Below, in pieces: positions 3,541 through 23,475 of a stretch of 64,000 bases of DNA. A model generated the notes under the pieces. The model saw only the letters and a program-made list of their open reading frames with translations, was not told the origin of the DNA and ran no database searches. The DNA is from Trypanosoma brucei (Eukaryota). Position numbers and translations under genes: made by a program. Positions within the stretch are counted from its first letter, which is position 1. Each line of letters begins with the position of its first letter. The DNA is taken from assembly GCA_000002445.1 (NCBI GenBank), contig CM000208.1, positions 2,784,001-2,848,000 of the forward strand. The letters run 5' to 3'.

Positions 3541-4995
3541 ATGCAGGCCACTTCTAAATCTACTGGATCTTCTGTTTCCATCACGGGGGAACACGAATAT
3601 GTAGTTTACACAGGTGCCACCCTTATTCCATTTTGCGTTGGGAGTGTTGCGCTTCCTTTAACATTGTGCCGTGCTTCTTCTTCAGCAGTCGCCGCATCCT
3701 CTCAAGCGCATGCATTGTCCTCTGCGTCCCGTGGTAACGCCAAGCAGAAGCGTAGCGGGAAGGGTAGTGGCCAACAAGAAACATCTCGTGACGAGGATAC
3801 TGGAGACAATGTTCATGACTACTGCGCAGGAATCAGTCGCTGCACGCACGTCCGGTATATTTACTTTCGTGATGGTTCCGTAGCGTCGCAGGACCTATCG
3901 TACCGTCATCAGTTATTCATGAAGGCAGATGGTGTGAAGCGGTCTGAAATGTTAGATGGAAAGGAGAGTAACCAGGTGTATAGTGCTTCACCACTGTACG
4001 CATTAGTCGATCGAGTTGTGTTCACTCTTCCTAACGGCTTTCCGGAGCGGCGCCGCGAAGTCACGCACCCGCCGTTTTTCATTGTGGACGACACGTGGGC
4101 GGAACATTTGGTGGAGGTGGAGGTGCACTTTCATCCATGGTTGGGCATAGCCCCTTTTACAGCGAGTCACATGGTTCTCTTAAACCAGCGTGTTGACGTC
4201 ACACCGCAGTTGCTAAGCTCAACTCAAGGCCAATGTAAACCACCGTCAACTGTCATCCTCTCACCCGACGAAGAGGAACGTTTAGCGGGTGTTGGGTCAT
4301 CTTCGCTTATTGGAACGAAGAGGTCCAGAGTACCCGAGTGTGGTGTTGTATTGCCTGAGGAAACTAGTGCAGTGCGTATGGATCTTAGTAATTCTGTTTA
4401 TTCACCTGATATGGTTATCCTTGGCGAACCCGGGTTTCGGGAAAGGCTTGTAGACCTCGTGGGGGCCCCTGTCGTAGCCGAGAGGCGTGATGCGATGCGA
4501 ATATTTCACCCGACGCTTGACGTTGTGCGATATCTTGCCGCTGTGCGAGCAATGCCTCAGCCAGAGTTAATGGCACCACCTCGAATATGTCTCTTGCCGT
4601 GGTACCAGCAGTCGGTTCAACCGCTGGCGACGCAACATACGGAGAAGAAATGCGAGAAAAGTGAGCGGTGCGACCGACACGGGACACGCAGTCGCTCCGT
4701 AATGAATGATGATAATATTTGTGATGACTCCGACCACGAAATTGACGTGGGATCCCTACCCCCCTGGTGCTTTCCATTTGAGGTGATAATTCATGCATGC
4801 GAGTCACGGCGGCAGAGTGGTGCCGTTGATGCCATGCGGGCTGTGCTTGCAGAGCTCAAGAAGGAGCAGTTGGAGTTACGTGAAAGCATTGAACAGAACA
4901 TTGCAGCCGCAACAGCAAATGCAGAAGAGCTGCGGGACGTCATCAAACACATGAGCCAGAGGTGCGCTGCTCTTCAGACGTCGTGGAAGCGCTAG
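3541..4995 (+). CDS. hypothetical protein with C-terminal coiled-coil
   Basis: ATG-initiated 484-aa ORF in the same orientation as the neighbouring genes. C-terminal heptad-like region (LAELKKEQLELRESIEQNIAAATANAEELRDV). No domain recognised. Confidence 0.55.
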   Translation: MQATSKSTGSSVSITGEHEYVVYTGATLIPFCVGSVALPLTLCRASSSAVAASSQAHALSSASRGNAKQKRSGKGSGQQETSRDEDTGDNVHDYCAGISRCTHVRYIYFRDGSVASQDLSYRHQLFMKADGVKRSEMLDGKESNQVYSASPLYALVDRVVFTLPNGFPERRREVTHPPFFIVDDTWAEHLVEVEVHFHPWLGIAPFTASHMVLLNQRVDVTPQLLSSTQGQCKPPSTVILSPDEEERLAGVGSSSLIGTKRSRVPECGVVLPEETSAVRMDLSNSVYSPDMVILGEPGFRERLVDLVGAPVVAERRDAMRIFHPTLDVVRYLAAVRAMPQPELMAPPRICLLPWYQQSVQPLATQHTEKKCEKSERCDRHGTRSRSVMNDDNICDDSDHEIDVGSLPPWCFPFEVIIHACESRRQSGAVDAMRAVLAELKKEQLELRESIEQNIAAATANAEELRDVIKHMSQRCAALQTSWKR

Positions 4996-5464: not shown

Positions 5465-6085
5465 ATGAGCTCTGGAAGCACGAAGCTTGAAGCAATTGTT
5501 GTATGTGGACCATCCGGTGCGGGAAAGACTACGCTCCTTGAGCGTTTGATGGGCGCTTATCCGAATCGCTTTGGATTTTCCGTATCACACACGACGCGTG
5601 CTCCCCGTGAGGGTGAGGTGCACGGCCGTGAGTACTTCTTCTCGACTCGTGAGAGCATGCTCACAATGGAGAAAGAGGGAAAGTTCATTGAACTATGTGA
5701 TGTTCACGGAAACTTGTATGGCACCAGCATTGATGCGGTTAAGGAGGTTCAAAGTACCGGCAAGGTGTGTGTCATTGACATGGACGTGAAGGGCGCGCAG
5801 AAGCTGCGAGCGAGCGGTTACTTGAAGAATGTACTTTATTTGTTTGTCACGGTGCCATCAATCGATGTTCTGCGCGCGCGAATTCAAAAGCGGGGTGCAT
5901 TGAGTGAGGAAGTGCTTCAGCGGCGCATTGCAACCGCTGAGGTGGAGTTGCACTTTTTGGGGGAAAATCCTACCTTTTTTTCCCACGTCATCACAAATGA
6001 GGAGTTGGAGGTATCGTACAAAAAACTGTGCGAAATCGTTGGGAGCGAGTTTCTGAAATATGGTATGGAGGGGTTAAATAAGTGA
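5465..6085 (+). CDS. guanylate kinase (GMP kinase)
   Basis: P-loop GPSGAGKTTL and GMP-binding motif SHTTRAPREGEVHGREYFF. Size (206 aa) is typical of the family. Confidence 0.9.
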   Translation: MSSGSTKLEAIVVCGPSGAGKTTLLERLMGAYPNRFGFSVSHTTRAPREGEVHGREYFFSTRESMLTMEKEGKFIELCDVHGNLYGTSIDAVKEVQSTGKVCVIDMDVKGAQKLRASGYLKNVLYLFVTVPSIDVLRARIQKRGALSEEVLQRRIATAEVELHFLGENPTFFSHVITNEELEVSYKKLCEIVGSEFLKYGMEGLNK

Positions 6086-6804: not shown

Positions 6805-7680
6805 GCTACTTCTTGTTTGGTTGCCTTGTGACTTCAAGTGGCGGGATGTATGGGGCCTTTTGGCTTATTTATTTATTGAATTTGTGTGACATGTCGACGC
6901 GGTGGGTTTCCATTTCACCTCACTTCACTCCTATTTCTGTTAGCTTTTGCTTTCGCGTTGCTCTTGCGGATGGTGAGGGGGTTCAGGCAATTTCTTCCTT
7001 TCTGTGGCTTCATTCCCCTCTACCCACCCCCGTTACTGTGGAGGTCAGGGCCCGTGGGTTAATGTTTTCATGTTGAAATTTCGGGAGTTTAATACGTAAG
7101 GCAGAAAAGGGTTTCGTTTTGGATGGATATCGCTTCTGCATAAAAGGATGGGCGCAAAGGCTGCTGTACAAATGAGGTTGCTGACGGTTGGTTCCTGCTT
7201 ATTCTGTTTATTCGATGCATTAAAGCTCGTGAGGCAGAGTGAATGAAAATGCATTTTACATCTTTTTTTTGGCATCATTTTTAGTTTCTACGGTTCTGAC
7301 TTAGCACTTCCTTTTTTCTTCTCATCTTTATTGATAATGTGTTACTTTTTTTTTTCGTGGCGGTGAAGTGCGTGAACGGGCGCTAAAGTAACCCCTAAGC
7401 TCTATCTCCACCCTAACGACACTGCAAATCCCTGGCGGCCCCACACATACACGCACTCGCACAGGACCACCATAAGAAAAGGGTGCTTCCACCGTGCACA
7501 GCAACGTTTTCTCCCTTTGCAGGCAAGAAAGAAAACATTTTACACATAAACTTTCCTCATAATTTAAATATTTTAGTTCGGGTTCGACGCTTCGCCCCCC
7601 TCCCCCCCAAATTCATCTGAGAGTCCGGGATGTGTTTGCAACTCACCGCTTCTGCCGGTCAAAGTGGCACTCTATTTTGT

Positions 7681-7740
7681 CGTCGTTTTCCTTTTTTATT
7701 CTTTTACATTCCCGCCTCCGCATACGTACAACCTCCTCAA
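7681..7740 (+). promoter_or_regulatory. polypyrimidine tract upstream of the zf-CW gene
   Basis: cgtcgttttccttttttattcttttacattcccgcctccg... The first in-frame ATG downstream is 7832. Confidence 0.4.
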
Positions 7741-7831
7741 ATGCATTCTGTTGACAATTCGAACGAGCGAAGAACTTGTCTGCAACGTGTGTGGCTGGCA
7801 ATAGTTGTGCATATTTGTTATATATATATAT

Positions 7832-10174
7832 ATGCTAACTCGAAGAGCCGCAGCCCTCTTGGGACAAGGGAGGGAGGACGGCCAAAATAGTGCATCTTCA
7901 TCACATGGTCAGCCTCAACAGCAGCGGCAAGGTTCTTCTTCCCCTTCCCTTGCTCCTTCCGCGCGCCCCTTAGGGGAGTTTAATGGGGGAACGGGGTCGG
8001 ATAGGGCACCACCACCGTATATTCCGCTACCAGAACCGCTATGGGAATTGAGAAGACGCTTTCCATCAGTTACACGCACGGTGCTCTTACAGTGTATACG
8101 CTGTCATCGCTGGGTTGCGCAGCCTGTTACCAAGTCGCCCCCACAGGAAAGCGAACCTGAGGTGACAAAAGAGGGAGAGGTGATCAGTTCATCCATAATT
8201 AAGGCGTCAAATGCAAGTGGAGAGAATGAGTCCGGTGAGGAGCGTGACGGAGAGGAAGAGTGGCGGTCACCGCGTCTACAGCTGCATTACGATAAGGTTG
8301 TCGGATACGTTAAGGGGAACGCTGGGGAGCGTTCGGGGAAGAAAAAGGAACTCTGCCCATACTTCATTCCTAACCCAGCCGTCTTTACGTGCCAATGGAC
8401 TTATTGTGAGTTAGAGGACACATGGTCCGATCTGCGGGGAAAGTGGCTTGGGGAGCTATACGCTGCAATGGGAAGTGCAAAAAATGATAATGAAGGGGGT
8501 TCCCGCAAGAATGGCGGTGTGGGTGATCAGGAGGAACGGAAACGTCTGAATCTTCAACTATCGAGGGAACTTCATGGTCGGCGGAGCGGCCGCCTAGCAG
8601 GGGGACTGCATGGGACCGCAGGCACGAGGGGTGAGTCAACCAAAGTGCAAGAGTGCGCAACGGAGTCAACGCACAGTGGTGGGATGGCTGACCGTGTGGA
8701 TAATCTTGTAAGAAGCGATGAGGCTGTTCTAGCTGCGTTTTGCTGGATTACTTGCGACAGTTGCGGGAAGCTACGGCGTGTTCATCAGCCTTTCCCCGGT
8801 GGCGCACCTTTTGTATGCTCGTTAGCGCTTAACATTGGATCCTGTAGTGTGCCGGAGATCGACGGAGTTAGCGCCATATTTGGAAGTGCGCGTGGCCACT
8901 CGGCCTTAAACAGAAAGTTGGCCTATAGAGATGGTGATGCTGCTCTGCGTGGTGCTGTGAAATCGGACGCTGCAGTTTCGCATGCTAAAGCTCGCCAAGG
9001 GACAGCTCAAAACTCTATTGGGAGTCAGGGTTGCCACCCCAACTCTTTAGAATCTTCGATTCCTCTTCTTCGCTCGCTGACGGCGGCGGTGCGAAAGAGG
9101 TCCCTAGGCGGGTTTATCAAAAATATATTAACAACGCCAGATGAAGTGCGCTCCAAGCGGGAGGAGGTCATGAAGGCCTCTCTCGATCTTGCAGGGGAGA
9201 AACCCAGTGACATCCCCAAACAGCAGTTGGAAGTGGAATCCATCGCTATGAGACCAAGCGATCCGACACTAAAGGTAGACCTTGGCGAACCACATAAGGT
9301 TAAGGTTGAGGAAGATCCCGCGGTTCAACCGAAGCAGACCGGTGAAAGGGGGAAAATTAGCGCTGCCCCACCTGGAAGCGCACGTGGAGGCGCTGAGGAT
9401 GCTAATATAGGCGGCGATGCCGCACCAAAATGTTCTAGACGGCTTGGGTGTCCACCCCGTCCAGTTATGCGGCCGTTGAGTAACAGCGCCGAGCGTCACG
9501 CAGCAACTGGAAACAGTGCGCAAGGAAACCTAACTACACAACCCGGTGCGGCTCCAGCAAGGATCAAGACAGAGGGCTCCATTGGCAGCGGTGTGATGGG
9601 CATTAACTCGAAACCCAATGCTAAATCAGGAACGGACACCGGTCGGACGGCGCGACCAGAAAGCGGACGAGAAGCGGGTATTGAGTCTAAGTCGAATTCC
9701 TCAGATGGACATTCCTCTTTTAGCACAGGAAATAGCGCGAGGTGTACCCGGCGGCAGCTGAAGCTGACCGAAATGCTTGCGCAAGTGGACAGTGGTAAAT
9801 TGCCATCTCCCTCTAGTGCAGTGACCGGTAACGTTTCCAAAAACAAAAACGACAACCGAGGCGCGGCGACCGCTAATCGTTCCCAAGCCAGTGGGCACAA
9901 AGCATCCCGCCGAACCGATAGGAACTGTTCCAAGGTTGAGGAGGCCAGTACCTCTGAGGATGAAGAAGGATATGAAGTAACCCATTGGGTCTGCTGTGAC
10001 GCATGCGACAAGTGGCGTGTCCTATCAAAAAAACTTCCCCATGGGACGAAACGGTGGGAGTGCACTATGCGTGGAGACGGAACCACGTGTGACGATACCG
10101 ATGACGAAGTCAAAATGAATCGTGAGGAAAAGCGTAAGAAGGCGCATAAGGAGCTTAAAAGGAGGAGGACATAG
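7832..10174 (+). CDS. hypothetical protein with three CW-type zinc-finger-like modules
   Basis: The track start 7805 is a TTG. The first in-frame ATG is 7832, still inside a (TA)n tract, so the true start is uncertain. CW-like motifs: LQCIRCHRWV (partial), WITCDSCGKLRRV...PFVCS (second Trp replaced by Leu), and a canonical WVCCDACDKWRVL...RWEC...TCDD near the C-terminus. The rest is low-complexity S/G/A-rich sequence. Confidence 0.6.
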   Translation: MLTRRAAALLGQGREDGQNSASSSHGQPQQQRQGSSSPSLAPSARPLGEFNGGTGSDRAPPPYIPLPEPLWELRRRFPSVTRTVLLQCIRCHRWVAQPVTKSPPQESEPEVTKEGEVISSSIIKASNASGENESGEERDGEEEWRSPRLQLHYDKVVGYVKGNAGERSGKKKELCPYFIPNPAVFTCQWTYCELEDTWSDLRGKWLGELYAAMGSAKNDNEGGSRKNGGVGDQEERKRLNLQLSRELHGRRSGRLAGGLHGTAGTRGESTKVQECATESTHSGGMADRVDNLVRSDEAVLAAFCWITCDSCGKLRRVHQPFPGGAPFVCSLALNIGSCSVPEIDGVSAIFGSARGHSALNRKLAYRDGDAALRGAVKSDAAVSHAKARQGTAQNSIGSQGCHPNSLESSIPLLRSLTAAVRKRSLGGFIKNILTTPDEVRSKREEVMKASLDLAGEKPSDIPKQQLEVESIAMRPSDPTLKVDLGEPHKVKVEEDPAVQPKQTGERGKISAAPPGSARGGAEDANIGGDAAPKCSRRLGCPPRPVMRPLSNSAERHAATGNSAQGNLTTQPGAAPARIKTEGSIGSGVMGINSKPNAKSGTDTGRTARPESGREAGIESKSNSSDGHSSFSTGNSARCTRRQLKLTEMLAQVDSGKLPSPSSAVTGNVSKNKNDNRGAATANRSQASGHKASRRTDRNCSKVEEASTSEDEEGYEVTHWVCCDACDKWRVLSKKLPHGTKRWECTMRGDGTTCDDTDDEVKMNREEKRKKAHKELKRRRT

Positions 10175-10939: not shown

Positions 10940-13210
10940 ATGGATAGCTCGCTTTGCTTCGTGTGCTCTAGGTGTGAGCACCCCATTTGCTCACACGTGG
11001 ATATTATCACCAAGACTGTGAGCAACGGGACGACAGAACATGCGTTTGTTTATGAGATGGAGGACTTGCTGAACATGGACAGACCTGTTCCGTGTTACAG
11101 TGGTGATGAAATATGTGAAACTCGAGTTCACGTTTCTGAAAAAATTCTCAATGTGCCGCTGCCACCAGCCGCCAGGTTGGTGGCACTAGAGGCCTTAGCA
11201 AACTCGCAGCGAGCTCGGGCCCTTGAGGTTGTCCCATCGGGTCCTGTGACGGATGCCGATAACAGCTTGACATCTGAGGTGGGACATGTCACGACGGACA
11301 GCGGGCAAAACCCCCAAGGCAACCATGATGAGGAAGCTGACAACGTCGCTGGCAACAGTTTGGGGCAAATTTCGCGGATTGGTGGGCAGGGACGCTCATC
11401 GCCGAGTTCCCCAACCAATGGTTCCGGTGATGTGTTAACACGATCTCTTGCGCGTTTTTCCCGTACCAAGGAAACTCGTGTGGACCTCATTTGTGTAAAG
11501 GAGGATGTTCTCTCTGGCGGTCTTGCTCGATGCACCACGGATCGTAGCGCCGACACTCCTCCAGTGCCCTTAACATCATCATTGGTTTCTGACGCCCCCG
11601 GAACCGCCTCTGTCGCTGCTGGTGGCGAGGAGAGTGGGGGAGCCAGTGCTTCACTAATGCGTGGGACACAGAGTACCCTGGGAATAGTGTCGCAAACGCC
11701 GACAGCCACGCGGTGGTTACGACACCCAGGAAACCTTATTGTGGAAGAAGGCTTCGTTCAAGTCAGGCGCCGCACCAAAACGTCCCGCTGTCCGTGGTTT
11801 AACACTTATAACTGTTCGGAGCGGCTGGAATGTCCCGACTGCCACCTTGCGTTGGGATACCTTTTTGTTGTTAAACCCACTACTCAAACCCATTCGCACC
11901 ACGCTCCCGCTCCTGGGCCGGAACCCACTGTGATGGAGGATGCAGAGGAAGGCAGCCCTGTGGGGACGCACCGGCTACAACAAAAAAGGGAGCGAAATGA
12001 GGACCAGGAGGAAGTGGTGCTGACAGTATCAGAGGAGACAACTGCTAGAGAGAACTCATCCACGCAGGAGCAGAAGCAGCAGTGTGAAGGGAAAGGTGCT
12101 GATGAGCCGTTCCCCACAACTTTTGTGGGTCTGGAGCTCAAGAAGATACGGCAGCGTCACTGGGGTTTGCGCGACTTCCAGAAACGATATCATCAGGCTA
12201 AAGACCTCAAAACGTTCCGACTGCTGTTTCCGGAAGCCGAGGAGTTGGAAAGTGTTTATAGTCGTCTTGTGGCTCTGCGGACGCAATCTGAGCTTTACGG
12301 CAATCTCCTGCGTAAGCACAAGGAACAGAATGATGTACAATATGCACTTATTGAGAGCCAGAAGGAACGGATAAGCAGTTATGAGGAGAAGCTTAATACT
12401 ATGCAGCAAATCATTGAGGCTCAGAGAGCTCAACTTGACATGCAGTGTAAGCAAATAAAGCACCAGGAGGAGCTGCTACGCAATCACAAAAGCCAGGTGG
12501 CAACGCAGCAGTATCAGATTCACGTCGAACAACTCCTGCGGAGTGAACAGAGCCGTACGATTGAATCACAGCGTGAACAACTAACACTCATGCAGGCCCA
12601 TCTCCGGGCGCGTGTCATGAAAGAGCAGCTGGAAGAGCGTTATGGGCAGCTCATTTCACTTCTTCAGCATGTGGATGAGCAGCAACAGCAACAGGAGTCG
12701 CCGACATCTCCTAGCAGCACCCCTACGCCCTCCCCTAGTGCGCCTTCGCAGGGAACATCGTGCCCAATTTTGCCTCCGGCGCATCTTGTGGGAGTCATCG
12801 GGCGAGATGTTCGTGAACAGTCACGTGTTTCCTCTGAATATAATCGCAGTGAGGGGAGTCATGGCGCACAGGAACGGTACCCCTCACGAGGGTCCACGCT
12901 GCCAACCTTGCTTGTGAACAGAAATGTGCCTCACAATGAGGGTGAGGCAACTGTGGATAACGGGCCCAGTAACAAATTCTCGGCAGGCAGGTCCGTCGCA
13001 TCAGGTGTTTCTGGCGGTAGGGAAAAAAACCACATCCTTTATGGTTGCAGTACGAGTGCTGCCGAGCAGGCGGTGGGAAGTGCAAGAAGAGCCCCGAGAG
13101 AGCGGGCCCAACTAAGCCCCGTCCAGGAGGCTTCGCCAAATAGAAGTAACGCGAGTGGTAACTGTCCAAGGGGGTCCGTAAGCGACACGAGCACGAGTGG
13201 GGAACCGTGA
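10940..13210 (+). CDS. hypothetical protein (N-terminal Cys/His cluster, central coiled-coil)
   Basis: ATG-initiated 756-aa ORF. N-terminal CFVCSRCEHPICSH. Long Q/E/L-rich heptad region (QQIIEAQRAQLDMQCKQIKHQEELLRNHKSQVATQQYQIHVEQLL). S/P-rich C-terminus. Confidence 0.55.
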   Translation: MDSSLCFVCSRCEHPICSHVDIITKTVSNGTTEHAFVYEMEDLLNMDRPVPCYSGDEICETRVHVSEKILNVPLPPAARLVALEALANSQRARALEVVPSGPVTDADNSLTSEVGHVTTDSGQNPQGNHDEEADNVAGNSLGQISRIGGQGRSSPSSPTNGSGDVLTRSLARFSRTKETRVDLICVKEDVLSGGLARCTTDRSADTPPVPLTSSLVSDAPGTASVAAGGEESGGASASLMRGTQSTLGIVSQTPTATRWLRHPGNLIVEEGFVQVRRRTKTSRCPWFNTYNCSERLECPDCHLALGYLFVVKPTTQTHSHHAPAPGPEPTVMEDAEEGSPVGTHRLQQKRERNEDQEEVVLTVSEETTARENSSTQEQKQQCEGKGADEPFPTTFVGLELKKIRQRHWGLRDFQKRYHQAKDLKTFRLLFPEAEELESVYSRLVALRTQSELYGNLLRKHKEQNDVQYALIESQKERISSYEEKLNTMQQIIEAQRAQLDMQCKQIKHQEELLRNHKSQVATQQYQIHVEQLLRSEQSRTIESQREQLTLMQAHLRARVMKEQLEERYGQLISLLQHVDEQQQQQESPTSPSSTPTPSPSAPSQGTSCPILPPAHLVGVIGRDVREQSRVSSEYNRSEGSHGAQERYPSRGSTLPTLLVNRNVPHNEGEATVDNGPSNKFSAGRSVASGVSGGREKNHILYGCSTSAAEQAVGSARRAPRERAQLSPVQEASPNRSNASGNCPRGSVSDTSTSGEP

Positions 13211-15345: not shown

Positions 15346-15772
15346 CGTGTATGCGCTTCGCTAGTTCTTCAGGGTAACAAACTCTCTAAGGGAGAATAGG
15401 GAATAACGAAGGAAGGAAGAAGGCAGAAGAAGTGATTTACGTAGACGAAAGCGGGTGAAAGCAAAGGAAAAAAGCAAGGGCTGAGGCACAAACGCGAGAA
15501 AAAGAGAGGGGGTTTTCTTTCGAAGTTGGGAAAAGGGTGATCGTCAGGTAGGGTGATATAAAGGAGCGTTGCATTTAGCAAAGAATAACGCCCGGTTGCG
15601 ATAAGTCGTAGAGTGCCACACATCTGACGAACGGTAACCTTTCCCTCGCAGATATAAGGGCACGCACTCACCTGTTCCTTTTAACTCCTCTGGGCGGCCG
15701 TCATATAGCGGAAACTTCTGAGTTGATTGTCGTCTCAGAACTTTGTGTAACTCTTTCTTACCGTTGCGTAAA

Positions 15773-18304
15773 ATGAGTTCAACCAAAGAGCCGCTACACA
15801 TGTTCTCCTTAGGCGTAACGGAGCGCTCATGGGACGATGATGATGGAAATGCGCAGCATCAGCAGCGTCAACAACCGATGCCGCTTAAGATAGGATCTGA
15901 GCAGGGTGGTGGCGTTTACAACAGTAACGTTGCACAGCTTCAGGCCCATGGGCGGTCCGACTTTGGCGCCACGGGTGAAATTCTGGGGTCGTCATCCTAC
16001 CCGTCCAATACGCCACCACCAGGGACGGGTTCCAATGCAATGGGGTGGGTGCGTTACACTGCGATGGACTTTGAGCTTCTACTCCACGAGGGAAAACAAC
16101 CTACGGATGATATGCGCCGTTCGCAGGTCTACGCTAAGTGGTACCAGACGAAAAGGTTAACTGATGATCGCGTTCTCCCGCCCCTGACAAATCCTCGCTA
16201 TGACGCGAAGGGCGATGCGGAGGCCCCGTGGGATCCTGTGGTCCCCATGCGTATTCAAGGCCAGCAAAGCGTCGCCGGAGGCGGCGGCTCAGAGTTGGTA
16301 GGAAAAGGGGGTATTCGTATGGAGCTAGATACCAAAAACCTTCAGCAGGCACATGAGCAGCAAACGTTCAACCCGTACGCGATGTGCTTTCAACAGCAAG
16401 ACGACAATATAATGAGTCCAGGAACGCAGTTCTTTGGCGCCTATGCACCGACGCCGCTAGCAACGATGGCAACACCAAATACACTGCGTGCCTACGCTCA
16501 CTCTCGTATGGGCACACAGGTTCGCAACAATAACAACGTTAACCGCGGGGAAATTACACAAATCATGGCACCTGTGGCGGGGCAAACGCTTTACAACTCG
16601 GACTGGAATGCGACTGGCGACTTCACAGCAGCTCAAGGCATGGTGCCGAATGTCTGTCAGCAATATTACACTCAAGAACAAATGAACACCTTTGATTATT
16701 ATGCCGACCCGACGGTAGTTAATTACTACAATACGGCAACCACCAATGTGACTGACCACACGCAGATGCAGCCAGCCATAATGGCCATCGCCCCTACGGG
16801 GGATATGGGTGCATTACGTGGTCCTGCTGGTAGCGCTGGTCCAATGGCTGGTCCGAGTGGAGGCGCTACTCGAGGTGGTAGACGTAGCGGTGGTAGGGGA
16901 CGTGGAGGTAACAGCGGCAAATGGGGTTCAGGCGCGGCGAGAGGTCGTGGCACAGCCCCTCGTGAGTCGACGCAGCCGTGCTCCGAGTTGTTGGAACATT
17001 TCCGCACTGACGCGGCGAGTGGTGGAGTAAGCCAGTGGCGCATTGCTCATATTCTTAACCACGCCGTGGAGTTTGCGCAAGATCAAGAGGGTAGTCGCTT
17101 TATTCAGCGTGCAGTGGAGAGCGCCACTCATGATGAGGTGGACGCTCTCTTCCGCGAGATTTTCGAGTCTCCCCTCGAACTGGTAGTTGACGTCTTCGGT
17201 AATTATGTACTGCAGAAGCTTCTTGAGGTGGGAAATGCGCGCCAACTTGCCTACGCTGCCACGCGCTTACAGAACAATGTTGTCAATCTCACCCTTCAAA
17301 CATATGGGTGCCGTGTGATCCAAAAGTGCATTGAGGTGATGCCCCCCGAAGGCCTCGATATTATTCTCTCTGAACTTAGGGGCAATGTAGCGAAATGCAT
17401 TCAGGACCAGAACGGAAACCACGTGGTGCAGAAATGCGTGGAGGTTATTCCGCAACGTTGCGGCTTTATTGTCTCGGCGTTCTCTGGACGGGTGATGGAG
17501 TTGGCCACCCATGCGTACGGTTGCCGCGTTATTCAGTGCATTATGGATCATTGCCCCGACCAGGAGGAAGCCATTTTTTCGGAGTTGCTTGATTGCGTAG
17601 GTACTTTGGCCACAGACCAATACGGTAACTATGTCATTCAACATGTGCTGCAGCACATGAAAGATGATGAAAAGGTGGGACGCATCTTCGACGCCTTGAA
17701 GGGGAACTTCTACGAATCCAGCAAGCAGAAATTTGCATCTAATGTAATGGAGAAACTATTTGTGCGTGCTGACCCTCAGCAGCGTATGGAACTTGTCAAC
17801 ATGATGTGCTCACCTATAGGAGATGACAGTGGTGAACCTGTTGAGGTGTTGTCCTTTAAGCGTTCGTCCGCTCCCAAAAAGGAAAATGTTGAGAAGCAGC
17901 GCAACGAGTACGCCAAAAAGGGCCGTCGCGACAGAGAACGCGATCGCGAGAAGGAGAACTCTCTTGGACTTGTGGTTGAAGTGCAGTTGGCGGGAAGAGA
18001 GCCTCCCAGCATGCTTTGCCTTATGATGCAGAATCCTTTCGCTAATTACGTTGCCCAACGCGTACTTGACGCCGCTCACGTTGATCAGTACGTTTGCCTC
18101 ATCGATAATATTCAAAAGTTCCTGTTGCCCATCAGCACCTACACATATGGTGCCCCAATCGTGCAGCGTTTGGTCCGACGCGAGTTAGTAAAGGCTCCCG
18201 ACGACGTTTCGCTAAATCTCGCAGTGAGTGCTGTTTCTGCAGGGGGAAGGGGCAGTTATGGGCACCACCGCAGGGAAGCGCGCGAGCACTTCGATGCCGA
18301 GTGA
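15773..18304 (+). CDS. Pumilio/PUF-family RNA-binding protein (8 PUF repeats)
   Basis: The track start 15743 is a TTG. The first ATG is 15773 (MSSTKEP). The C-terminal half holds eight recognisable PUF repeats (FGNYVLQKLLEVG, YGCRVIQKCIEV, QNGNHVVQKCVEV, YGCRVIQCIMDH, QYGNYVIQHVLQH, FASNVMEKLF, FANYVAQRVLD). The N-terminal half is Q/G/N-rich low complexity with an RGG-like segment (GGRRSGGRGRGGNSG). Confidence 0.9.
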   Translation: MSSTKEPLHMFSLGVTERSWDDDDGNAQHQQRQQPMPLKIGSEQGGGVYNSNVAQLQAHGRSDFGATGEILGSSSYPSNTPPPGTGSNAMGWVRYTAMDFELLLHEGKQPTDDMRRSQVYAKWYQTKRLTDDRVLPPLTNPRYDAKGDAEAPWDPVVPMRIQGQQSVAGGGGSELVGKGGIRMELDTKNLQQAHEQQTFNPYAMCFQQQDDNIMSPGTQFFGAYAPTPLATMATPNTLRAYAHSRMGTQVRNNNNVNRGEITQIMAPVAGQTLYNSDWNATGDFTAAQGMVPNVCQQYYTQEQMNTFDYYADPTVVNYYNTATTNVTDHTQMQPAIMAIAPTGDMGALRGPAGSAGPMAGPSGGATRGGRRSGGRGRGGNSGKWGSGAARGRGTAPRESTQPCSELLEHFRTDAASGGVSQWRIAHILNHAVEFAQDQEGSRFIQRAVESATHDEVDALFREIFESPLELVVDVFGNYVLQKLLEVGNARQLAYAATRLQNNVVNLTLQTYGCRVIQKCIEVMPPEGLDIILSELRGNVAKCIQDQNGNHVVQKCVEVIPQRCGFIVSAFSGRVMELATHAYGCRVIQCIMDHCPDQEEAIFSELLDCVGTLATDQYGNYVIQHVLQHMKDDEKVGRIFDALKGNFYESSKQKFASNVMEKLFVRADPQQRMELVNMMCSPIGDDSGEPVEVLSFKRSSAPKKENVEKQRNEYAKKGRRDRERDREKENSLGLVVEVQLAGREPPSMLCLMMQNPFANYVAQRVLDAAHVDQYVCLIDNIQKFLLPISTYTYGAPIVQRLVRRELVKAPDDVSLNLAVSAVSAGGRGSYGHHRREAREHFDAE

Positions 18305-21269
18305 AAAAATAAAATAAAATAGTTGATAGGAGTTGTTGGACAGTCTGAGTAAATGGAGGAAAAGAGAAAAGAGAAAAGGGGAATAGTGGGTGGTGTGTGA
18401 CGAAATGTAGAGATGCATCACCGCAGTGAGAGTGACGTCGAATTGGCGTCCAATTTCCATATGAGGTCACGACGTTCCTCACAAGCATGAATAAAATGAA
18501 ATGAAGAAGGAAATTTTTTTTTTTTTAAAAAAGAAAAATCAAAACCAATATCAATTAATAAATAAATATATTGTGTCCCCTCCATTTCCCTTGGTTGTCT
18601 GCTCTTTGTTGTTTTTTTTCTTCATTTTACTATTCATTTTATTTCTCTCCATCATGTCACATAATCCCTCAAGCTGTGACCCAGAGGAGGGAAATGAATA
18701 TCAAGAGGAAAAGATATTATATTTCAACATGTTTTGATGTAGAGAAGGATTGCACGTGTGCGTACACTTGAAGGCGTTTGAAGGAAAGGGAGAAGAAAGA
18801 GGGAGGGGAGAAGGAATTGTGATGGAAAGAAAGAGAAAAAAAAAAGAAAAAAAGAAAAAAAAGGGGGGAAAAAAGAGTAAAGGAAGAGCAAAACTAAGAC
18901 ATGCAAGAAAAAATAATATTAAATGAAGAAAGAAGAAACGAAAAAAAAAATCATATTGAATAATTGAGAGGGAATGATTGTTGTTGTTGTTGTTTTTTTT
19001 TTTTGCTCCCTCTTGTATTTTGTAAAGAAAGAAAAGAAAAAGATACGCGTACATCCCCTTTTCTCTTCATTTTCTTTTTTTCTTTTTTTTTTCCCCCTTT
19101 TGTCTCCTTTCCTACGTGAAGATTAATGCAAAAAAGATATTTTGTTGTTTTTTTCACCTTTTATCCCTCCTGAACTCTCGTTACTTCTGTTATATTTTTA
19201 CGATTTATTACTTCTCACTAGTGTTTTGGATGTTGGTGTTGGTTGAGTGTTCTTTGTGTTTTGTTTTTGTTTTTTATTATTTTGTTTCGGATTCTTATTT
19301 GTTTGTTTTATTTTCAATTTTTTTTTGTTGTGATTTAGCGTAGTGACGAGTGAATGGGACGAGAAGAAATACGATAGTGAATAGGAGAGTTTTTGTTCGT
19401 TTGTTTTTTGTTTTTGTTTTTGTGAAAAAGAGAAGTAAAGAAGGAGGAACCGAGCGGAGAAAAAATGGTGGGATGAAAGACAAAGGAATAAAAAATAAAA
19501 AAATAGGAGTGATGACGATGACTATGATGATGATGAATGGTAGAGAGAATAAATTTTATTATGTTGAGGAGTGTAGTGAAAAGGTGACAAAGAATTTTTG
19601 AAAAGGAAGAGATTTTGCAGGTGGAAAAAAGGGAGACGTTTAGTTTGAAAATGAAAGTAAATTGGCTGAATGGGGAGAGGGATTTTTTTAAAAAAAAAAT
19701 TAGTAATAATAATAATAAAATCAGCGAATAGACGAGTGGAATGGCAAAATAACAATATCAACAACAACAGATTAAAAGGAAGGAAAAAAAAAAATAGAAC
19801 AGAGTAAAAGTAAAAAATGCCAACAGAGCACTACTACCACCGAAATCAAGAACAAAACAAATCAATACAGAAAAAAAAAATACGGAAGAAAGACGATGAG
19901 AAACGAGGGAATTCAGAAAAAGAAAAAAAAATAAGAGAGATAAGGAAGGGGGAGCGCACGAAGATGTGAATGAGTGACAAAGCAAATATAACCAAAAGCA
20001 GTTATTATTATTATTATTTGTTATTGTTATTGTTGTTATTGTTAGTAGACAAGAAGGATGAGTGATAACGACGTACCCATTTTTGTCTGTGTTTATGTTT
20101 GTGCTTGTGTGTTTTTTTTTCCCTGTGATTTGCGAAGAATATAAATATATAAATATATATAAGTATATATAAATAAATATATATAAATATTTACTTATAC
20201 AATATGTGTTCGTCTGTGATGTTTTTGTGTGTGTGTCTATGAGCTGCGAAAAGAATGATGAATGAAAATTTATTTCTTTTAAACACTATGTTTGAAGGAA
20301 GTAAAGGCTATAGATTGTTTGACATCGGTGGTGTGAAAGGGGACAAAAAAGCAAAGAGAGGTCAGCTTTTTGTGTTTCATTTGTTTTCTTTTTTCTCCTT
20401 TTTCTCCTTTTTTTCTTTTTTTCTTTTTTTTAAAATCACCATTGAGGTGAACAGGTAGAGGTGTTGTAGAGATATGAAAGTGGATATAACGACGCAGAGC
20501 GTGGCGTAGACAAAAATTAAAAAAAATTAAAATTAATGCAGAAGAAAGGAGGAAAAGGTGTGTGTGGCGGATCTGGAAGGGGAAGTGACGAAAAAAAAAA
20601 ATGAAAGTGAGAAGCATTCACTATCTCCATTTTTTCCTCTTTATTTTGTTGTGCCCGGGAATTTCTTTTTTTTTTTTCTTATTGGACCTTTAGGGAGGAC
20701 GTTGATGCGTTCTTCTCCAATTTTTGTCTTACTTCTTTTATTTTATTTTATTTTATTTCTTGTTTGTAGTGCTGTGCTTTTTCTTCGTCTTCTCTTTGTC
20801 TGTTTTTCTTTTTCTTTTTTTGTTTTCATGTGCTGTTTGTGCCCCTTCTTACATTTTTTTTTCTACACGCAAATCCATTTGATGGACTTGCTTCTGTGGA
20901 GCTGGGGAATCTCAGTTTCGAAATATACAATAATAATAATATTATTATTATTACATTAATATAAATATTATTATTAGTGGTAATATTTATTGTAGTGTTC
21001 GTATCTTTCCTTTTCTCCTTCCATTCCATTCCATTCCATTCCCTTTTCTTTTTCTTCTCCCTTCTCCCTTTTCCCTCTCCTTTCTTTCCTTCCTTATGTT
21101 CTTTTTCTTTTTCCTTCTGATTTTCCTCATTTTACATGTTGACCTTCCGTTGCAGAGGAGTATTTATTATGCTTGTGTGTATGTGAGGGGGGAAAAAAAG
21201 AAGTGAAAAGAAATGTGAAGGTGAAGGCCGAGTGGGATGCATCGGGACGATTGTTATATTTGCTTCATT

Positions 21270-21360
21270 ATATATTATATATTATATATATATATATATA
21301 TTATTATTATTATTATTACCATTATTGTTAATATTAATATTATTATTACTACTACTATTA
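21270..21360. repeat. compound AT-rich microsatellite ((TATAT)n, (TA)n, (ATT)n, (TAT)n)
   Basis: tatatattatatattatatatatatatatatattattattattattacc... read directly. Confidence 0.85.
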
Positions 21361-23400
21361 CTATTTGCCCGCTCCTTCTCTTCTCTTCTCTTCTTTAATT
21401 AATTTACATTTACTCTTCTCCATTCCCCACCCTAACTTTTTTTGGGCGTCGTTGCGTCTCCTCTGTGCCCCCGATGCCTAAGGTTGCTTTTTGTATTTAT
21501 TTCGCTGTTGTGTTTTCTTGTTTGTTCTTGCGCACGTGTTGGAATGTACATGATTTTCTAAATTAAGAGAGAGAGAAAGAGGAAAAACGAAATATTCGCA
21601 AATGATTATATATTAATATATATATATATATATATAAATATGTGCATGTATATGTTTTTTTTTTGGTTCTATCTACGTGTGTTCGCGTCTGTGTTTGTGT
21701 TTGTCTGTTTGTGTTTCTTTCTCTACGAGGAAAGGCAGTAACTGAAAGGAATGCGTGTAGGATACCTGGGGAAATGGAGGAGAGGGATTTTGTGTTTGTT
21801 CGCCTGTGTGGAGGAATGAATAAAAAATTCTTTTTTTTTTTAAAAAAAAGAAAGGCGACGCAAAAAGAAGAGGGACGGTCGTGGGAGAGGAAAAGAGTTA
21901 TATGAAGTGGGTCATTTAAAAGGAGCAAAAAGAAGAAAAAAAATTAAGGAAAACAAATCAAAACGAATTAAAAAAACAACAACAACAACAGGGTAAATGG
22001 ATGAAAGGGGAGGGGGGAAAAAAAAGGGGGAGAGGAGTAAAGGAGCGAAACGGGAGAAGGGGATCGGTAGAAGAATGACAGGAATATATATTTTATATAT
22101 TATTTAGCTGTGGAGAAATTGAAGTTTAGGGGTGATGAAATGAAAAATGGGAATTAGTGCGTATATATATATATGTGTGTGTGTGTGTGCGCGCGTATGT
22201 ATGGCTATTGTGCAGTACATTTACGAGTTATTTAAACATATGTATCCATCAGGAATAATTGAACATGAAGACAAACAACCAAACAAGCAAATGAAACGGA
22301 ATAGATAAATGAGAAGCAGAAGGTGAACATGATGGAGTTTTGAGTGTGTGTGTGTGTGAGTGTGTGCATTTGGTGGTGTAAGAGTAGGAGGAGGGAAGTG
22401 AGGCGTTAGTATAATGAGGAAAAAGATGAGAAAGCATTTTCTTCTTTTCTTCTTCTGAAAAAAATAAAAAGGAGAAGAGGGGGAATGTCAACTGGGAAGG
22501 GAAGACAAGGCAAAGTGCGAATCCTTCCCCGCATGCCTGTTTTATTCTTTCCTTTTCTTTTGTTTTTTAGCAATTGCTGCTGCTGAGGGCCCACTGTTTT
22601 TGTTTATTCCTTTTGTTATACGCCCTTCATCTTCTCTTTTGTTTCTCTTTCCCTCCTTCTTCACCTTCACCCTTGTTTTTTTTCTTTTTCTATTTCATTC
22701 ACTTTCCTTCTTCTATCAGTCACCATATATACACGTGTGAGTTTGTTAGCGGTACCGTCTTGTTACTACTTTTATTTGGCTGCTTTTTTTGTTTTCACTT
22801 TGTTTTTCTGTGGCATTGAACACCATTGTCAAAACCTGCCTCCAGTGATGTTCATTCATTCATTCATTCAACTATTTTATTTGATTTTATTTTTGCGCAT
22901 GTGTACTCCTGCCATCTTTCCATCCATTCCAGTCATCCTGCGTAGTTGAACTTTCCCCTCGTTCCTTTTTTTTTTCTATTTTTTTGTAAAATATTTACAT
23001 TAGTTATAAAAGTGTTGATATGTCCATTGTAGCGCACTCGTAACACCTTCCGTGCATTCAGCATTTGCCCATACATTTTAATTTGCTTATCAATATATGA
23101 ATATATAAATATATAAATATATATATATTTATGTGCATTGATAATTGCACGCGTTGGGAGAAGGAAATGCGGGGCACGTGGTGGCAACGGCAAATGATTT
23201 CGCAAGGATTGACAGCAGATATTTGTGTAATGTCCCCCCCCCAAAAAAAAATAATAGTAATAAATAAATAACAAAAAACAGAAAGAAAAAAAGAACAACA
23301 ACAAAAAGAAACAAAACCGGGTGTAGAAAAATGTACACACACAAAAAAAAAAGAAAAGAGATTATGAATTAAAGGCGTGCAGGAAATTCTTTGTAAAGAA

Positions 23401-23475
23401 CTTTTAGTTTCACTCTGCTCTCTTTTATCTCCTTACTGCTCTGAACACCATTATTTTTTATTTTTATTACTTCGT
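23401..23475 (+). promoter_or_regulatory. polypyrimidine tract plus AG upstream of small ORF 23612
   Basis: cttttagtttcactctgctctcttttatctccttactgctctgaacaccattattttttatttttattacttcgttttcttgcatctacataag. Confidence 0.4.

What the first reader, a model, noticed from the sequence alone, without database searches (positions are those of the whole stretch)
7832..10174. Protein with three CW-type zinc-finger modules (one canonical, two degenerate) in a low-complexity scaffold
zf-CW domains (W-x-C-D-x-C-x-K-W-R ... W-x-C ... C) are histone-tail methyl-lysine readers. The C-terminal copy is canonical (WVCCDACDKWRVL...RWEC...TCDD). A middle copy has the second Trp replaced by Leu (WITCDSCGKLRRV...FVCS). 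An N-terminal copy is partial (LQCIRCHRWV). A protein made of multiple CW fingers linked by S/G/A-rich disorder is an unusual architecture. It could be a chromatin or mRNA-processing factor, so it is a candidate epigenetic reader. The start codon is uncertain because ATG 7832 is embedded in a (TA)n tract.
Basis: partly seen in the sequence, partly recalled or inferred. Interest (0 to 1): 0.5.

Follow-up and report, generated by a model that had tools for sequence, protein, structure and literature searches.

The report
Known trypanosome chromatin factor ZCW1
This ORF is the already named and partly studied Trypanosoma brucei chromatin protein ZCW1; it has one intact and one degenerate CW zinc finger, and the proposed third one is a conserved four-cysteine module that cannot be shown to be a CW finger.

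Summary
The ORF 7832-10174 (+) is real. Its 780-aa product is identical to T. brucei TREU927 Q389G9, which is Tb927.10.11720, published as ZCW1. Published work describes ZCW1 as a nuclear Znf-CW protein found at RNA polymerase II transcription start regions. It co-purifies with SET26, FACT, SWR1-complex subunits, H2A.Z and H2B.V.

Two of the three claimed CW modules hold up.
- **C-terminal module (aa 718-758):** it passes the Pfam threshold (31.7 bits against 27.5). It has all four Cys, both cage Trp (W719, W728) and the core Trp (W742).
- **Middle module (aa 304-342):** it is a true CW homologue. Pfam gives E about 1e-5, and 8 of 8 orthologues tested hit the family. hhalign against the C-terminal module gives 94% probability. 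The 'right-wall' cage Trp is aliphatic (L/M/I/V/T) in all 21 homologues. This is nevertheless the best-conserved stretch of the protein.
- **N-terminal segment:** it is a conserved four-Cys module (C88, C91 ... C187, C192) split by an insert of about 95 aa. None of 19 orthologues gave a zf-CW hit. The resemblance is limited to a CxxCxxW knuckle.

Multi-CW proteins are common, so the architecture is not unusual. The start codon is settled by an in-frame TAG 30 nt upstream. The gene is already known and interest is low. The only modest open point is what the invariant degenerate CW and the N-terminal module bind.

The parts
7832..10174 (+). Complete CDS of ZCW1 (Tb927.10.11720, UniProt Q389G9): 780 codons plus the stop codon.
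   Evidence: The ORF is. The protein sequence matches EAN78551.1/XP_823379.1/Q389G9 exactly. Q389G9 is listed as Tb927.10.11720, ZCW1, in Supplemental Table S1 of PMC8559703. Cross-linked peptides KKAHK at 769, KLAYR at 362 and SDAAVSHAKAR at 386, reported for Tb927.10.11720 (780 aa) in PMC12749359, fit this sequence.
7802..7804 (+). In-frame TAG stop 30 nt upstream of the ATG. It fixes ATG 7832 as the first possible start.
   Evidence: Read directly from the sequence. The ORF listing starts at TTG 7805.
7819..7833 (.). (TA)7.5 microsatellite that overlaps the first two bases of the start codon.
   Evidence: Tandem Repeats Finder.
7670..7767 (+). Pyrimidine-rich tract (7670-7719) followed by the first AG (7766-7767). 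This is a candidate spliced-leader acceptor and is inferred only.
   Evidence: Sequence. No RNA data were available.
8015..8467 (+). N-terminal conserved module, aa 62-212. It comprises a YIPLP strand, a helix, the zinc knuckle LLQC88-x2-C91-x2-W94, a variable acidic insert of about 95 aa containing the WRSPRL motif, then IPNPxxFxC187-x4-C192 and a helix. It is a putative single-zinc module and is not a demonstrable CW.
   Evidence: C187 and C192 are invariant, and C88, C91 and W94 nearly invariant, in 21 homologues. AlphaFold2 gives local pLDDT of 65-79, with a hairpin at 83-87/94-98 and a strand at 178-180. There is no zf-CW hit.
8546..8599 (+). Conserved helical motif LNxxLxxELxxRRSxRLA (aa 239-256).
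   Evidence: Alignments A1 and A4. A helix is predicted at aa 231-248.
8741..8857 (+). Middle, degenerate CW zinc finger (aa 304-342). It has C308, C311, C329, C338, the floor Trp W305 and the core residue F327. The right-wall Trp is replaced by L314. It is the most conserved block of the protein.
   Evidence: Pfam gives 25.7-26.4 bits, E about 1e-5, and 8 of 8 orthologues hit. hhalign gives 94% probability. Mean identity is 0.71-0.72 across 21 homologues, against 0.47-0.62 for the C-terminal CW. Position 314 is L/M/I/V/T in all of them.
9053..9187 (+). Conserved helical block PLLRxLTxALRKRxLGxFVKxxxxxPxEVRxKRExV (aa 408-452).
   Evidence: Alignments. Helices are predicted at aa 404-432 and 436-452.
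9437..9460 (+). RRLGCPPR (aa 536-543), conserved in Trypanosoma. It aligns with an AT-hook (RKRGRPRR) in Novymonas and may be a degenerate AT-hook.
   Evidence: Alignment A1. Motif scan of the orthologues.
9983..10105 (+). C-terminal canonical CW zinc finger (aa 718-758). It has W719 (floor), C722, C725, W728 (right wall), W742 (core), C744 and C753, followed by an acidic DDTDDE stretch.
   Evidence: Pfam scores 31.7 bits against a gathering score of 27.5. It aligns to the MORC3 CW domain. All these residues are invariant in 21 homologues. A generic CW profile scores it 46.9 bits.
10112..10171 (+). Basic C-terminal tail KMNREEKRKKAHKELKRRRT (aa 761-780), predicted helical. It may be a nuclear-localisation or nucleic-acid-binding tail; this is an inference.
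   Evidence: Sequence. A helix is predicted at aa 756-779.

Best explanation
The ORF is the T. brucei gene ZCW1 (Tb927.10.11720). It encodes a largely disordered nuclear scaffold protein with three conserved cysteine modules.

Proposed mechanism:
- The C-terminal CW finger has a complete zinc site and a complete two-Trp cage. It most likely binds the methylated H3K4 tail, a mark that is concentrated at trypanosome RNAPII transcription start regions. This would help hold ZCW1 on that chromatin.
- The rest of the protein serves as a platform for partners: SET26, FACT, SWR1-complex subunits including YEA1, and H2A.Z/H2B.V.
- The middle CW finger has lost the right-wall Trp in every homologue, yet it is the most conserved block. 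It therefore probably does not read trimethyl-lysine. More likely it binds a different conserved ligand, such as a partner protein or an unmethylated or differently modified tail. The degenerate MORC2 CW, which binds an arginine-rich protein surface, is a precedent.
- The N-terminal four-Cys module is likewise taken to be a zinc-stabilised interaction module.

What is shown: the gene's identity, the presence and conservation of the modules, and the state of the cage residues. From the literature: nuclear and start-region localisation, and the partners. What is inferred: the H3K4me binding and the ligands of the other two modules.

The confidence of 0.65 is for the whole mechanism. Taken separately, the identity as ZCW1 is about 0.99, the count of two CW fingers plus one non-CW four-Cys module about 0.85, and H3K4me reading by the C-terminal CW about 0.6.
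For: Identity: the sequence matches Q389G9 exactly, and Q389G9 is Tb927.10.11720/ZCW1.

Localisation and partners: ZCW1 is exclusively nuclear and enriched at RNAPII start regions together with H2A.Z. It associates with SET26, most histones and variants, the FACT subunits SPT16 and POB3, and SWR1/SRCAP subunits (PMC8559703).

H3K4me3 marks trypanosome transcription initiation regions (PMC9508842).

C-terminal CW: Pfam score above threshold. W719 and W728 align to the two Trp of the MORC3 CW WVQCDACLKWR motif, the conserved pair that forms the methyl-lysine pocket in CW domains (PMC9043364). All of these residues are invariant in 21 homologues.

Middle CW: homology is established. Position 314 is never aromatic. 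Conservation is the highest in the protein.

Precedent: the MORC2 CW lacks one cage Trp, binds no histone peptide, and instead contacts its own ATPase module (PMC5811534).

N-terminal module: four co-conserved Cys and a locally confident beta-hairpin.
Against: No binding data for any ZCW1 module were found in the papers searched (the ZCW1 term, 32 papers; the gene-ID search found none). A review calls ZCW1 a methyl-lysine reader only by inference from the domain.

In a 2026 pull-down, SET26 was enriched on unmodified recombinant H2A.Z-H2B.V nucleosomes. That preprint does not mention ZCW1. So recruitment of this network to start regions need not depend on H3K4 methylation.

The structure predictions were poor, with mean pLDDT of 39.9 and 44.4. 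The middle CW scored below 50, so there is no structural support for pocket geometry.

Residues that complete the pocket, equivalent to MORC3 E453 or ZCWPW1 W303, could not be assigned.
Confidence: 0.65

Rival explanations
1. All three segments are CW-type methyl-lysine readers, and the protein reads several methylated histone tails at once.
For: The three segments share a CxxC knuckle followed by a distal Cys pair, and each has an aromatic residue before the third Cys: F185, F327 and W742. Multi-CW proteins exist elsewhere.
Against: The middle module lacks the right-wall Trp in 21 of 21 homologues. The N-terminal module lacks the floor Trp (L85), has an insert of about 95 aa and a C-x4-C distal pair rather than C-x8-C. 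It gives no zf-CW hit in any of 19 orthologues, and its score is within the shuffle background. hhalign gives only 12-33% probability over 12-13 columns. Loss of a single cage Trp abolishes histone-peptide binding in MORC2.
Confidence: 0.05
2. Start-region targeting does not depend on methyl-lysine reading. ZCW1 is brought to chromatin by its partners (SWR1-C, BDF2, SET26, H2A.Z-H2B.V nucleosomes), by DNA contacts, or both. Its CW fingers act mainly as protein-protein or regulatory modules, as in MORC2 and in MORC3 autoinhibition.
For: SET26, BDF2 and SWRC2 are enriched on unmodified recombinant H2A.Z-H2B.V nucleosomes. The degenerate MORC2 CW binds its own ATPase domain, and the MORC3 CW autoinhibits. 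Most orthologues outside Trypanosoma carry canonical AT-hooks next to the C-terminal CW. The most conserved module is the one with the broken cage.
Against: The C-terminal CW keeps every residue needed for a methyl-lysine cage in all 21 homologues. That is hard to explain without selection for the pocket. H3K4me3 coincides with the places where ZCW1 is found.
Confidence: 0.25
3. The protein is an mRNA-processing factor rather than a chromatin factor.
For: Only the general point that gene expression in trypanosomes is controlled largely after transcription, together with the protein's long disordered S/G/A-rich linkers.
Against: ChIP-seq shows enrichment at start regions. The partners are histones, FACT, SET26 and SWR1-C. 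Pfam finds no RNA-binding domain.
Confidence: 0.02

Closest known systems
Trypanosoma brucei ZCW1 (Tb927.10.11720, UniProt Q389G9; Staneva et al. 2021, Genome Res 31:2138)
   Same: The 780-aa sequences are identical. It is the same gene.
   Different: Nothing differs. In the text I could read, the published description treats it as a Znf-CW protein. I found no discussion of a second, degenerate CW or of the N-terminal four-Cys module. The domain figure itself is an image that I could not read.
Reader-competent CW domains: MORC3, MORC4, ZCWPW1, ZCWPW2, Arabidopsis ASHH2/SDG8
   Same: The C-terminal module has the four Zn-binding Cys, both pocket Trp and the core Trp, with canonical spacing. It aligns to the MORC3 and ASHH2 CW structures.
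   Different: The host architecture differs: there is no ATPase, PWWP or SET domain in the same chain. The pocket-completing C-terminal element (MORC3 E453, ZCWPW1 W303, the ASHH2 alpha1 helix) could not be identified. Binding has not been tested.
Degenerate CW domains: MORC1 and MORC2 (and KDM1B/LSD2, from my own recollection of the literature)
   Same: The middle module is a folded-type CW with one cage Trp missing. Like the MORC2 CW, it is expected not to bind H3K4me3 and may bind a protein surface instead.
   Different: MORC2 loses the floor Trp (Thr496) and keeps the right-wall Trp505. The ZCW1 middle CW does the reverse: it keeps W305 and has an aliphatic residue at 314. The signature CGK[LMIVT]RRxxQPFPGGxPFxC was found only in the kinetoplastid ZCW1 family. 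Every hit outside that family matched only the C-terminal part of the profile.
PHD fingers (for example KMT2D PHD6)
   Same: The N-terminal knuckle PSVTxxVLLQCxRCHRWV weakly resembles PYVEEDLLIQCRHCERWM of KMT2D PHD6 (E 0.43). PHD and CW fingers share this kind of zinc-knuckle hairpin; that last point is my own knowledge.
   Different: The N-terminal module has only four conserved Cys, enough for one zinc site, whereas a PHD finger has eight ligands. H92 is not conserved outside Trypanosoma and Leishmaniinae. The match is not significant.

Membership tests
T. brucei ZCW1 (Tb927.10.11720) | Protein sequence identical to the reference protein Q389G9 | tested here: met
   The sequence matches EAN78551.1/XP_823379.1/Q389G9 exactly, 780 aa, on a contig of 4.05 Mb. 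The mapping from Q389G9 to the gene and the name comes from PMC8559703 and PMC12749359.
zf-CW (PF07496): C-terminal module, aa 718-758 | Profile score at or above the Pfam gathering score of 27.5 bits | tested here: met
   31.7 bits, E 1.5e-7, over profile positions 1-46 of 47.
zf-CW (PF07496): C-terminal module, aa 718-758 | Four Zn-binding Cys, two pocket Trp and one core Trp | tested here: met
   C722, C725, C744, C753, W719, W728 and W742 are all invariant in 21 homologues. The definition of these features is from PMC9043364.
zf-CW (PF07496): C-terminal module, aa 718-758 | Binds a methylated H3K4 tail | not testable with these tools
   No binding data were found in the literature searched. 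It is inferred from the intact cage.
zf-CW (PF07496): middle module, aa 304-342 | Profile score at or above the Pfam gathering score of 27.5 bits when scored on its own | tested here: not met
   25.7-26.4 bits. This is just under the cut-off.
zf-CW (PF07496): middle module, aa 304-342 | Statistically significant homology to CW profiles, and four Cys in CW spacing | tested here: met
   E 1.2e-5 to 2.7e-6, with 8 of 8 orthologues tested hitting. hhalign against the C-terminal module gives 94% probability, E 1e-7. My own CW profile gives 21.8 bits. C308, C311, C329 and C338 are invariant.
zf-CW (PF07496): middle module, aa 304-342 | Both pocket Trp present | tested here: not met
   W305 is present. 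Position 314 is L/M/I/V/T in 21 of 21 homologues.
zf-CW (PF07496): N-terminal module, aa 62-212 | Any significant match to a CW profile | tested here: not met
   No Pfam hit on the native segment. No zf-CW hit on any of 19 spliced orthologous modules. My own CW profile gives 2.1 bits; the 95th percentile of shuffles is 3.0-3.9. hhalign gives 12-33% probability over 12-13 columns.
zf-CW (PF07496): N-terminal module, aa 62-212 | CW fold: a beta-hairpin zinc knuckle packed against the distal Cys pair | tested here: inconclusive
   AlphaFold2 predicts a hairpin at 83-87/94-98 and a strand at 178-180 with local pLDDT of 65-79, but the models are poor overall. Foldseek found nothing significant.
PHD finger | C4HC3 ligand set binding two zinc ions | tested here: not met
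   The N-terminal module has only four conserved Cys. The PHD matches are weak and isolated: one of 19 members in Pfam at E 0.078, and E 0.43 in PDB.

The most novel reading that the evidence does not exclude
The kinetoplastid-specific, near-invariant middle CW (floor Trp kept, right-wall Trp always aliphatic) and the split N-terminal four-Cys module may be readers of a kinetoplastid-specific chromatin feature. Candidates are the H2A.Z or H2B.V tails or surface, or an unmethylated or otherwise modified tail. Combined with the canonical H3K4me-reading CW, this would make ZCW1 the multivalent factor that directs SWR1-C to the promoter-less transcription start regions of trypanosomes.
Probability: 0.12. 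Interest if true: 0.55.

Novelty: already known. Interest (0 to 1): 0.18.

Why it matters
The main result is that the finding is already explained. The gene is annotated as a CW-type zinc finger protein. As ZCW1 it has been localised, mapped by ChIP-seq and characterised by affinity-purification proteomics.

What this analysis adds is small:
- A clean domain dissection: one canonical CW, one degenerate CW and one non-CW four-Cys module.
- The observation that the degenerate CW, not the canonical one, is the most constrained part of the protein across trypanosomatids.

If the degenerate CW turns out to bind a specific partner or histone variant, that would help explain how H2A.Z/H2B.V domains are targeted in organisms without classical promoters. 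That question has to be settled at the bench and is not a discovery from the sequence.

Tried and rejected
1. AlphaFold2 on the full length with an 11-sequence alignment gave mean pLDDT 39.9. On aa 58-455 with a 12-sequence alignment it gave 44.4. Both are too poor to judge pocket geometry or whether C88, C91, C187 and C192 cluster.
2. Foldseek of the second model against PDB found nothing at E<=0.001. MORC3 CW chains appeared at E 2-3, too weak to interpret.
3. PDB profile searches found nothing meaningful with the native N-terminal module, with aa 58-455 or with the spliced N-terminal module.
4. I tested whether the N-terminal module is a CW interrupted by an insert. I removed the insert in 19 orthologues and scanned them against Pfam. 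None hit zf-CW. I reject the idea as undemonstrated, though it is not disproved.
5. Literature searches for the gene ID and for ZCW1 found only the 2021 survey, a 2021 review and a 2025 XL-MS/Hi-C paper. None contains binding or structural data.
6. tRNA and Rfam scans of the window were both empty.
7. The antisense ORF 9496-10113 (205 aa) lies entirely inside the conserved sense CDS. I took it to be spurious and did not pursue it.
Full report
**Observation**

The window is trypanosomatid-like. All large ORFs lie on the + strand, in the manner of a polycistronic unit. An ORF runs from TTG 7805 to the stop codon at 10172-10174. ATG 7832 overlaps the end of a (TA)7.5 tract at 7819-7833.

**Identity**

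The 780-aa product is an exact match to T. brucei brucei TREU927 EAN78551.1/XP_823379.1/UniProt Q389G9, which lies on a 4.05-Mb contig. It is 99% identical to the T. b. equiperdum protein, and near-identical copies in T. b. gambiense and T. equiperdum fall in the same 90% cluster. Supplemental Table S1 of Staneva et al. 2021 (PMC8559703) lists Q389G9 as Tb927.10.11720, named ZCW1, with domain Znf-CW and nuclear localisation. [quoted passage not shown] Its cross-linked peptides fit this sequence: KKAHK at 769, KLAYR at 362 and SDAAVSHAKAR at 386. The gene is therefore already annotated and named.

**What is published about it**

- ZCW1 is exclusively nuclear.
- It is one of 15 factors enriched together at RNAPII transcription start regions that overlap H2A.Z.
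- It co-purifies with SET26, most histones and variants, and the FACT subunits SPT16 and POB3.
- It also co-purifies with apparent SWR1/SRCAP subunits, including the YEATS protein YEA1.
- The authors suggest it may help direct SWR1 to start regions.
- It is also seen at boundaries between chromosome compartments.
- A review calls its CW domain a methyl-lysine reader, but only by inference.
- I found no binding or structural study.

**The C-terminal module (aa 718-758)**

Pfam zf-CW scores 31.7 bits against a gathering score of 27.5. The whole protein scores 41.9 bits. The module aligns to the MORC3 and ASHH2 CW structures. W719 and W728 sit on the two Trp of the MORC3 WVQCDACLKWR motif, and W742 sits on the Trp of the MORC3 W-x-C motif, the core position. 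CW domains are defined by four Zn-binding Cys, two pocket Trp and one core Trp (PMC9043364). All seven of these residues are invariant in 21 trypanosomatid-type homologues. This is a canonical CW that should be competent as a reader.

**The middle module (aa 304-342)**

- Scored alone it gives 25.7-26.4 bits, E about 1e-5, over profile positions 2-45 of 47. That is just under the gathering score.
- All 8 orthologues tested hit zf-CW.
- hhalign against the C-terminal module gives 94% probability, E 1e-7.
- A CW profile that I built from 188 CW domains of unrelated proteins gives 21.8 bits, against 46.9 for the C-terminal module.

It is therefore a genuine CW homologue. C308, C311, C329, C338 and the floor Trp W305 are invariant, and F327 takes the core-Trp position. 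The right-wall position 314 is L, M, I, V or T in all 21 homologues and is never aromatic. This block is the best conserved in the protein. Mean identity is 0.71-0.72, against 0.47-0.62 for the canonical CW.

MORC2 offers a precedent. Its CW lacks one cage Trp (the floor residue, Thr496), binds no histone peptide, and instead docks on an Arg-rich surface of its own ATPase module (PMC5811534). ZCW1 shows the mirror-image defect.

**The N-terminal segment**

LQCIRCHRWV belongs to a conserved module covering aa 62-212. In order it contains:
- RYIPLPxxL, followed by a helix;
- the knuckle LLQC88-x2-C91-x2-W94;
- a variable acidic insert containing the WRSPRL motif;
- IPNPxxFxC187-x4-C192, followed by a helix.

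C187 and C192 are invariant, and C88, C91 and W94 nearly so. This points to a single zinc site assembled across an insert of about 95 aa.

It cannot be shown to be a CW:
- Pfam gave no hit on the native segment.
- Pfam gave no zf-CW hit on any of 19 orthologous modules with the insert removed.
- My CW profile gave 2.1 bits, while the 95th percentile of shuffles is 3.0-3.9.
- The knuckle alone scores 8.7 bits, a value reached by 7% of shuffles that keep C and W fixed.
- hhalign gave 12-33% probability over 12-13 columns.
- A PDB profile search gave only a weak PHD-like match, to KMT2D PHD6 at E 0.43.

AlphaFold2 predicts a hairpin at 83-87/94-98 and a strand at 178-180 with local pLDDT of 65-79. 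Both models are poor overall, with mean pLDDT of 39.9 and 44.4, and Foldseek found nothing significant. If the module is a CW at all, it lacks the floor Trp (L85) and has C-x4-C instead of C-x8-C.

**Architecture and the start codon**

The linkers are S/G/A-rich (30-44%), poorly conserved and predicted to be disordered. The multi-CW architecture is not unusual. Of 117 unrelated proteins recovered by the profile search, 55 have two near-full CW matches and 8 have three. The query profile itself contains CW modules, so the sample favours multi-CW proteins.

The start codon is not really uncertain. An in-frame TAG lies at 7802-7804. ATG 7832 is the only ATG before the conserved block that starts at aa 62, and the next Met is aa 213. 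The T. vivax protein starts MITRQ, against MLTRR here. A pyrimidine tract at 7670-7719 followed by AG 7766-7767 is a plausible trans-splice acceptor, but this is an inference.

**Mechanism**

The best-supported reading has four parts.
- ZCW1 is a disordered scaffold.
- Its C-terminal CW reads methylated H3K4. H3K4me3 marks trypanosome start regions.
- The degenerate middle CW, the N-terminal zinc module and the conserved helices (aa 239-256 and 408-452) bind partners such as SET26, FACT and SWR1-C.
- The identity, the anatomy and the state of the cage residues are shown here. Localisation and partners come from the literature. The ligands are inferred.

The main rival is partner-driven or nucleosome-driven recruitment that does not depend on methyl-lysine reading. 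It draws support from the enrichment of SET26, BDF2 and SWRC2 on unmodified H2A.Z-H2B.V nucleosomes and from the AT-hooks found in most orthologues outside Trypanosoma.

**Verdict**

The gene is already known as ZCW1, so interest is low. The only residual curiosity is what the invariant degenerate CW and the N-terminal module bind.

Noticed in passing
window 3541-4995 (+): This ORF encodes a YEATS-domain protein (Pfam PF03366). It is an exact match to Q389H2, which is Tb927.10.11690, named YEA1. YEA1 is the putative SWR1-complex subunit reported to co-purify with ZCW1. ZCW1 and one of its physical partners are therefore encoded 2.8 kb apart on the same strand, separated by a guanylate kinase gene (5465-6085). 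This is probably coincidence in a polycistronic genome. I did not check synteny in other trypanosomatids.
   Followed up: partly
window 15743-18304 (+) and 18305-25114: A Pumilio/PUF-repeat protein gene is followed by about 6.8 kb of AT-rich sequence (GC 32-37%). The stretch has many short A/T-rich tandem repeats, no ORF of 200 aa or more on either strand (only scattered short, mostly low-complexity ORFs), no tRNA and no Rfam match. It may be an unusually long UTR or intergenic region.
   Followed up: partly
window 9437-9460 (aa 536-543 of ZCW1); orthologues P0010, P0014-P0018, P0022-P0025: Most ZCW1 orthologues outside Trypanosoma carry one or two canonical AT-hooks (KRGRPPK), generally about 50-160 aa upstream of the C-terminal CW. 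T. brucei has none. The Trypanosoma-conserved motif RRLGCPPR aligns with the Novymonas AT-hook RKRGRPRR and may be a degenerate remnant.
   Followed up: partly
remote hits (for example P0121, P0080, P0093, P0051): Many unnamed proteins from public assemblies contain two or three canonical CW fingers in tandem. Of 117, 55 have two and 8 have three. I did not determine their taxa or their other domains.
   Followed up: no
window 10940-13210 (+) and 25115-28606 (+): The downstream neighbour is 756 aa. It has an N-terminal Cys/His-rich stretch (CFVCSRCEHPICSH) and a Q/E-rich C-terminal half that looks like coiled coil. A 1163-aa acidic-repeat protein lies further downstream. Neither has a Pfam match at E<=0.001.
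   Followed up: no
window 9496-10113 (-): A 205-aa antisense ORF lies entirely within the ZCW1 coding region, opposite the C-terminal CW. I took it to be a chance ORF in G+C-rich coding sequence and did not examine it further.
   Followed up: no
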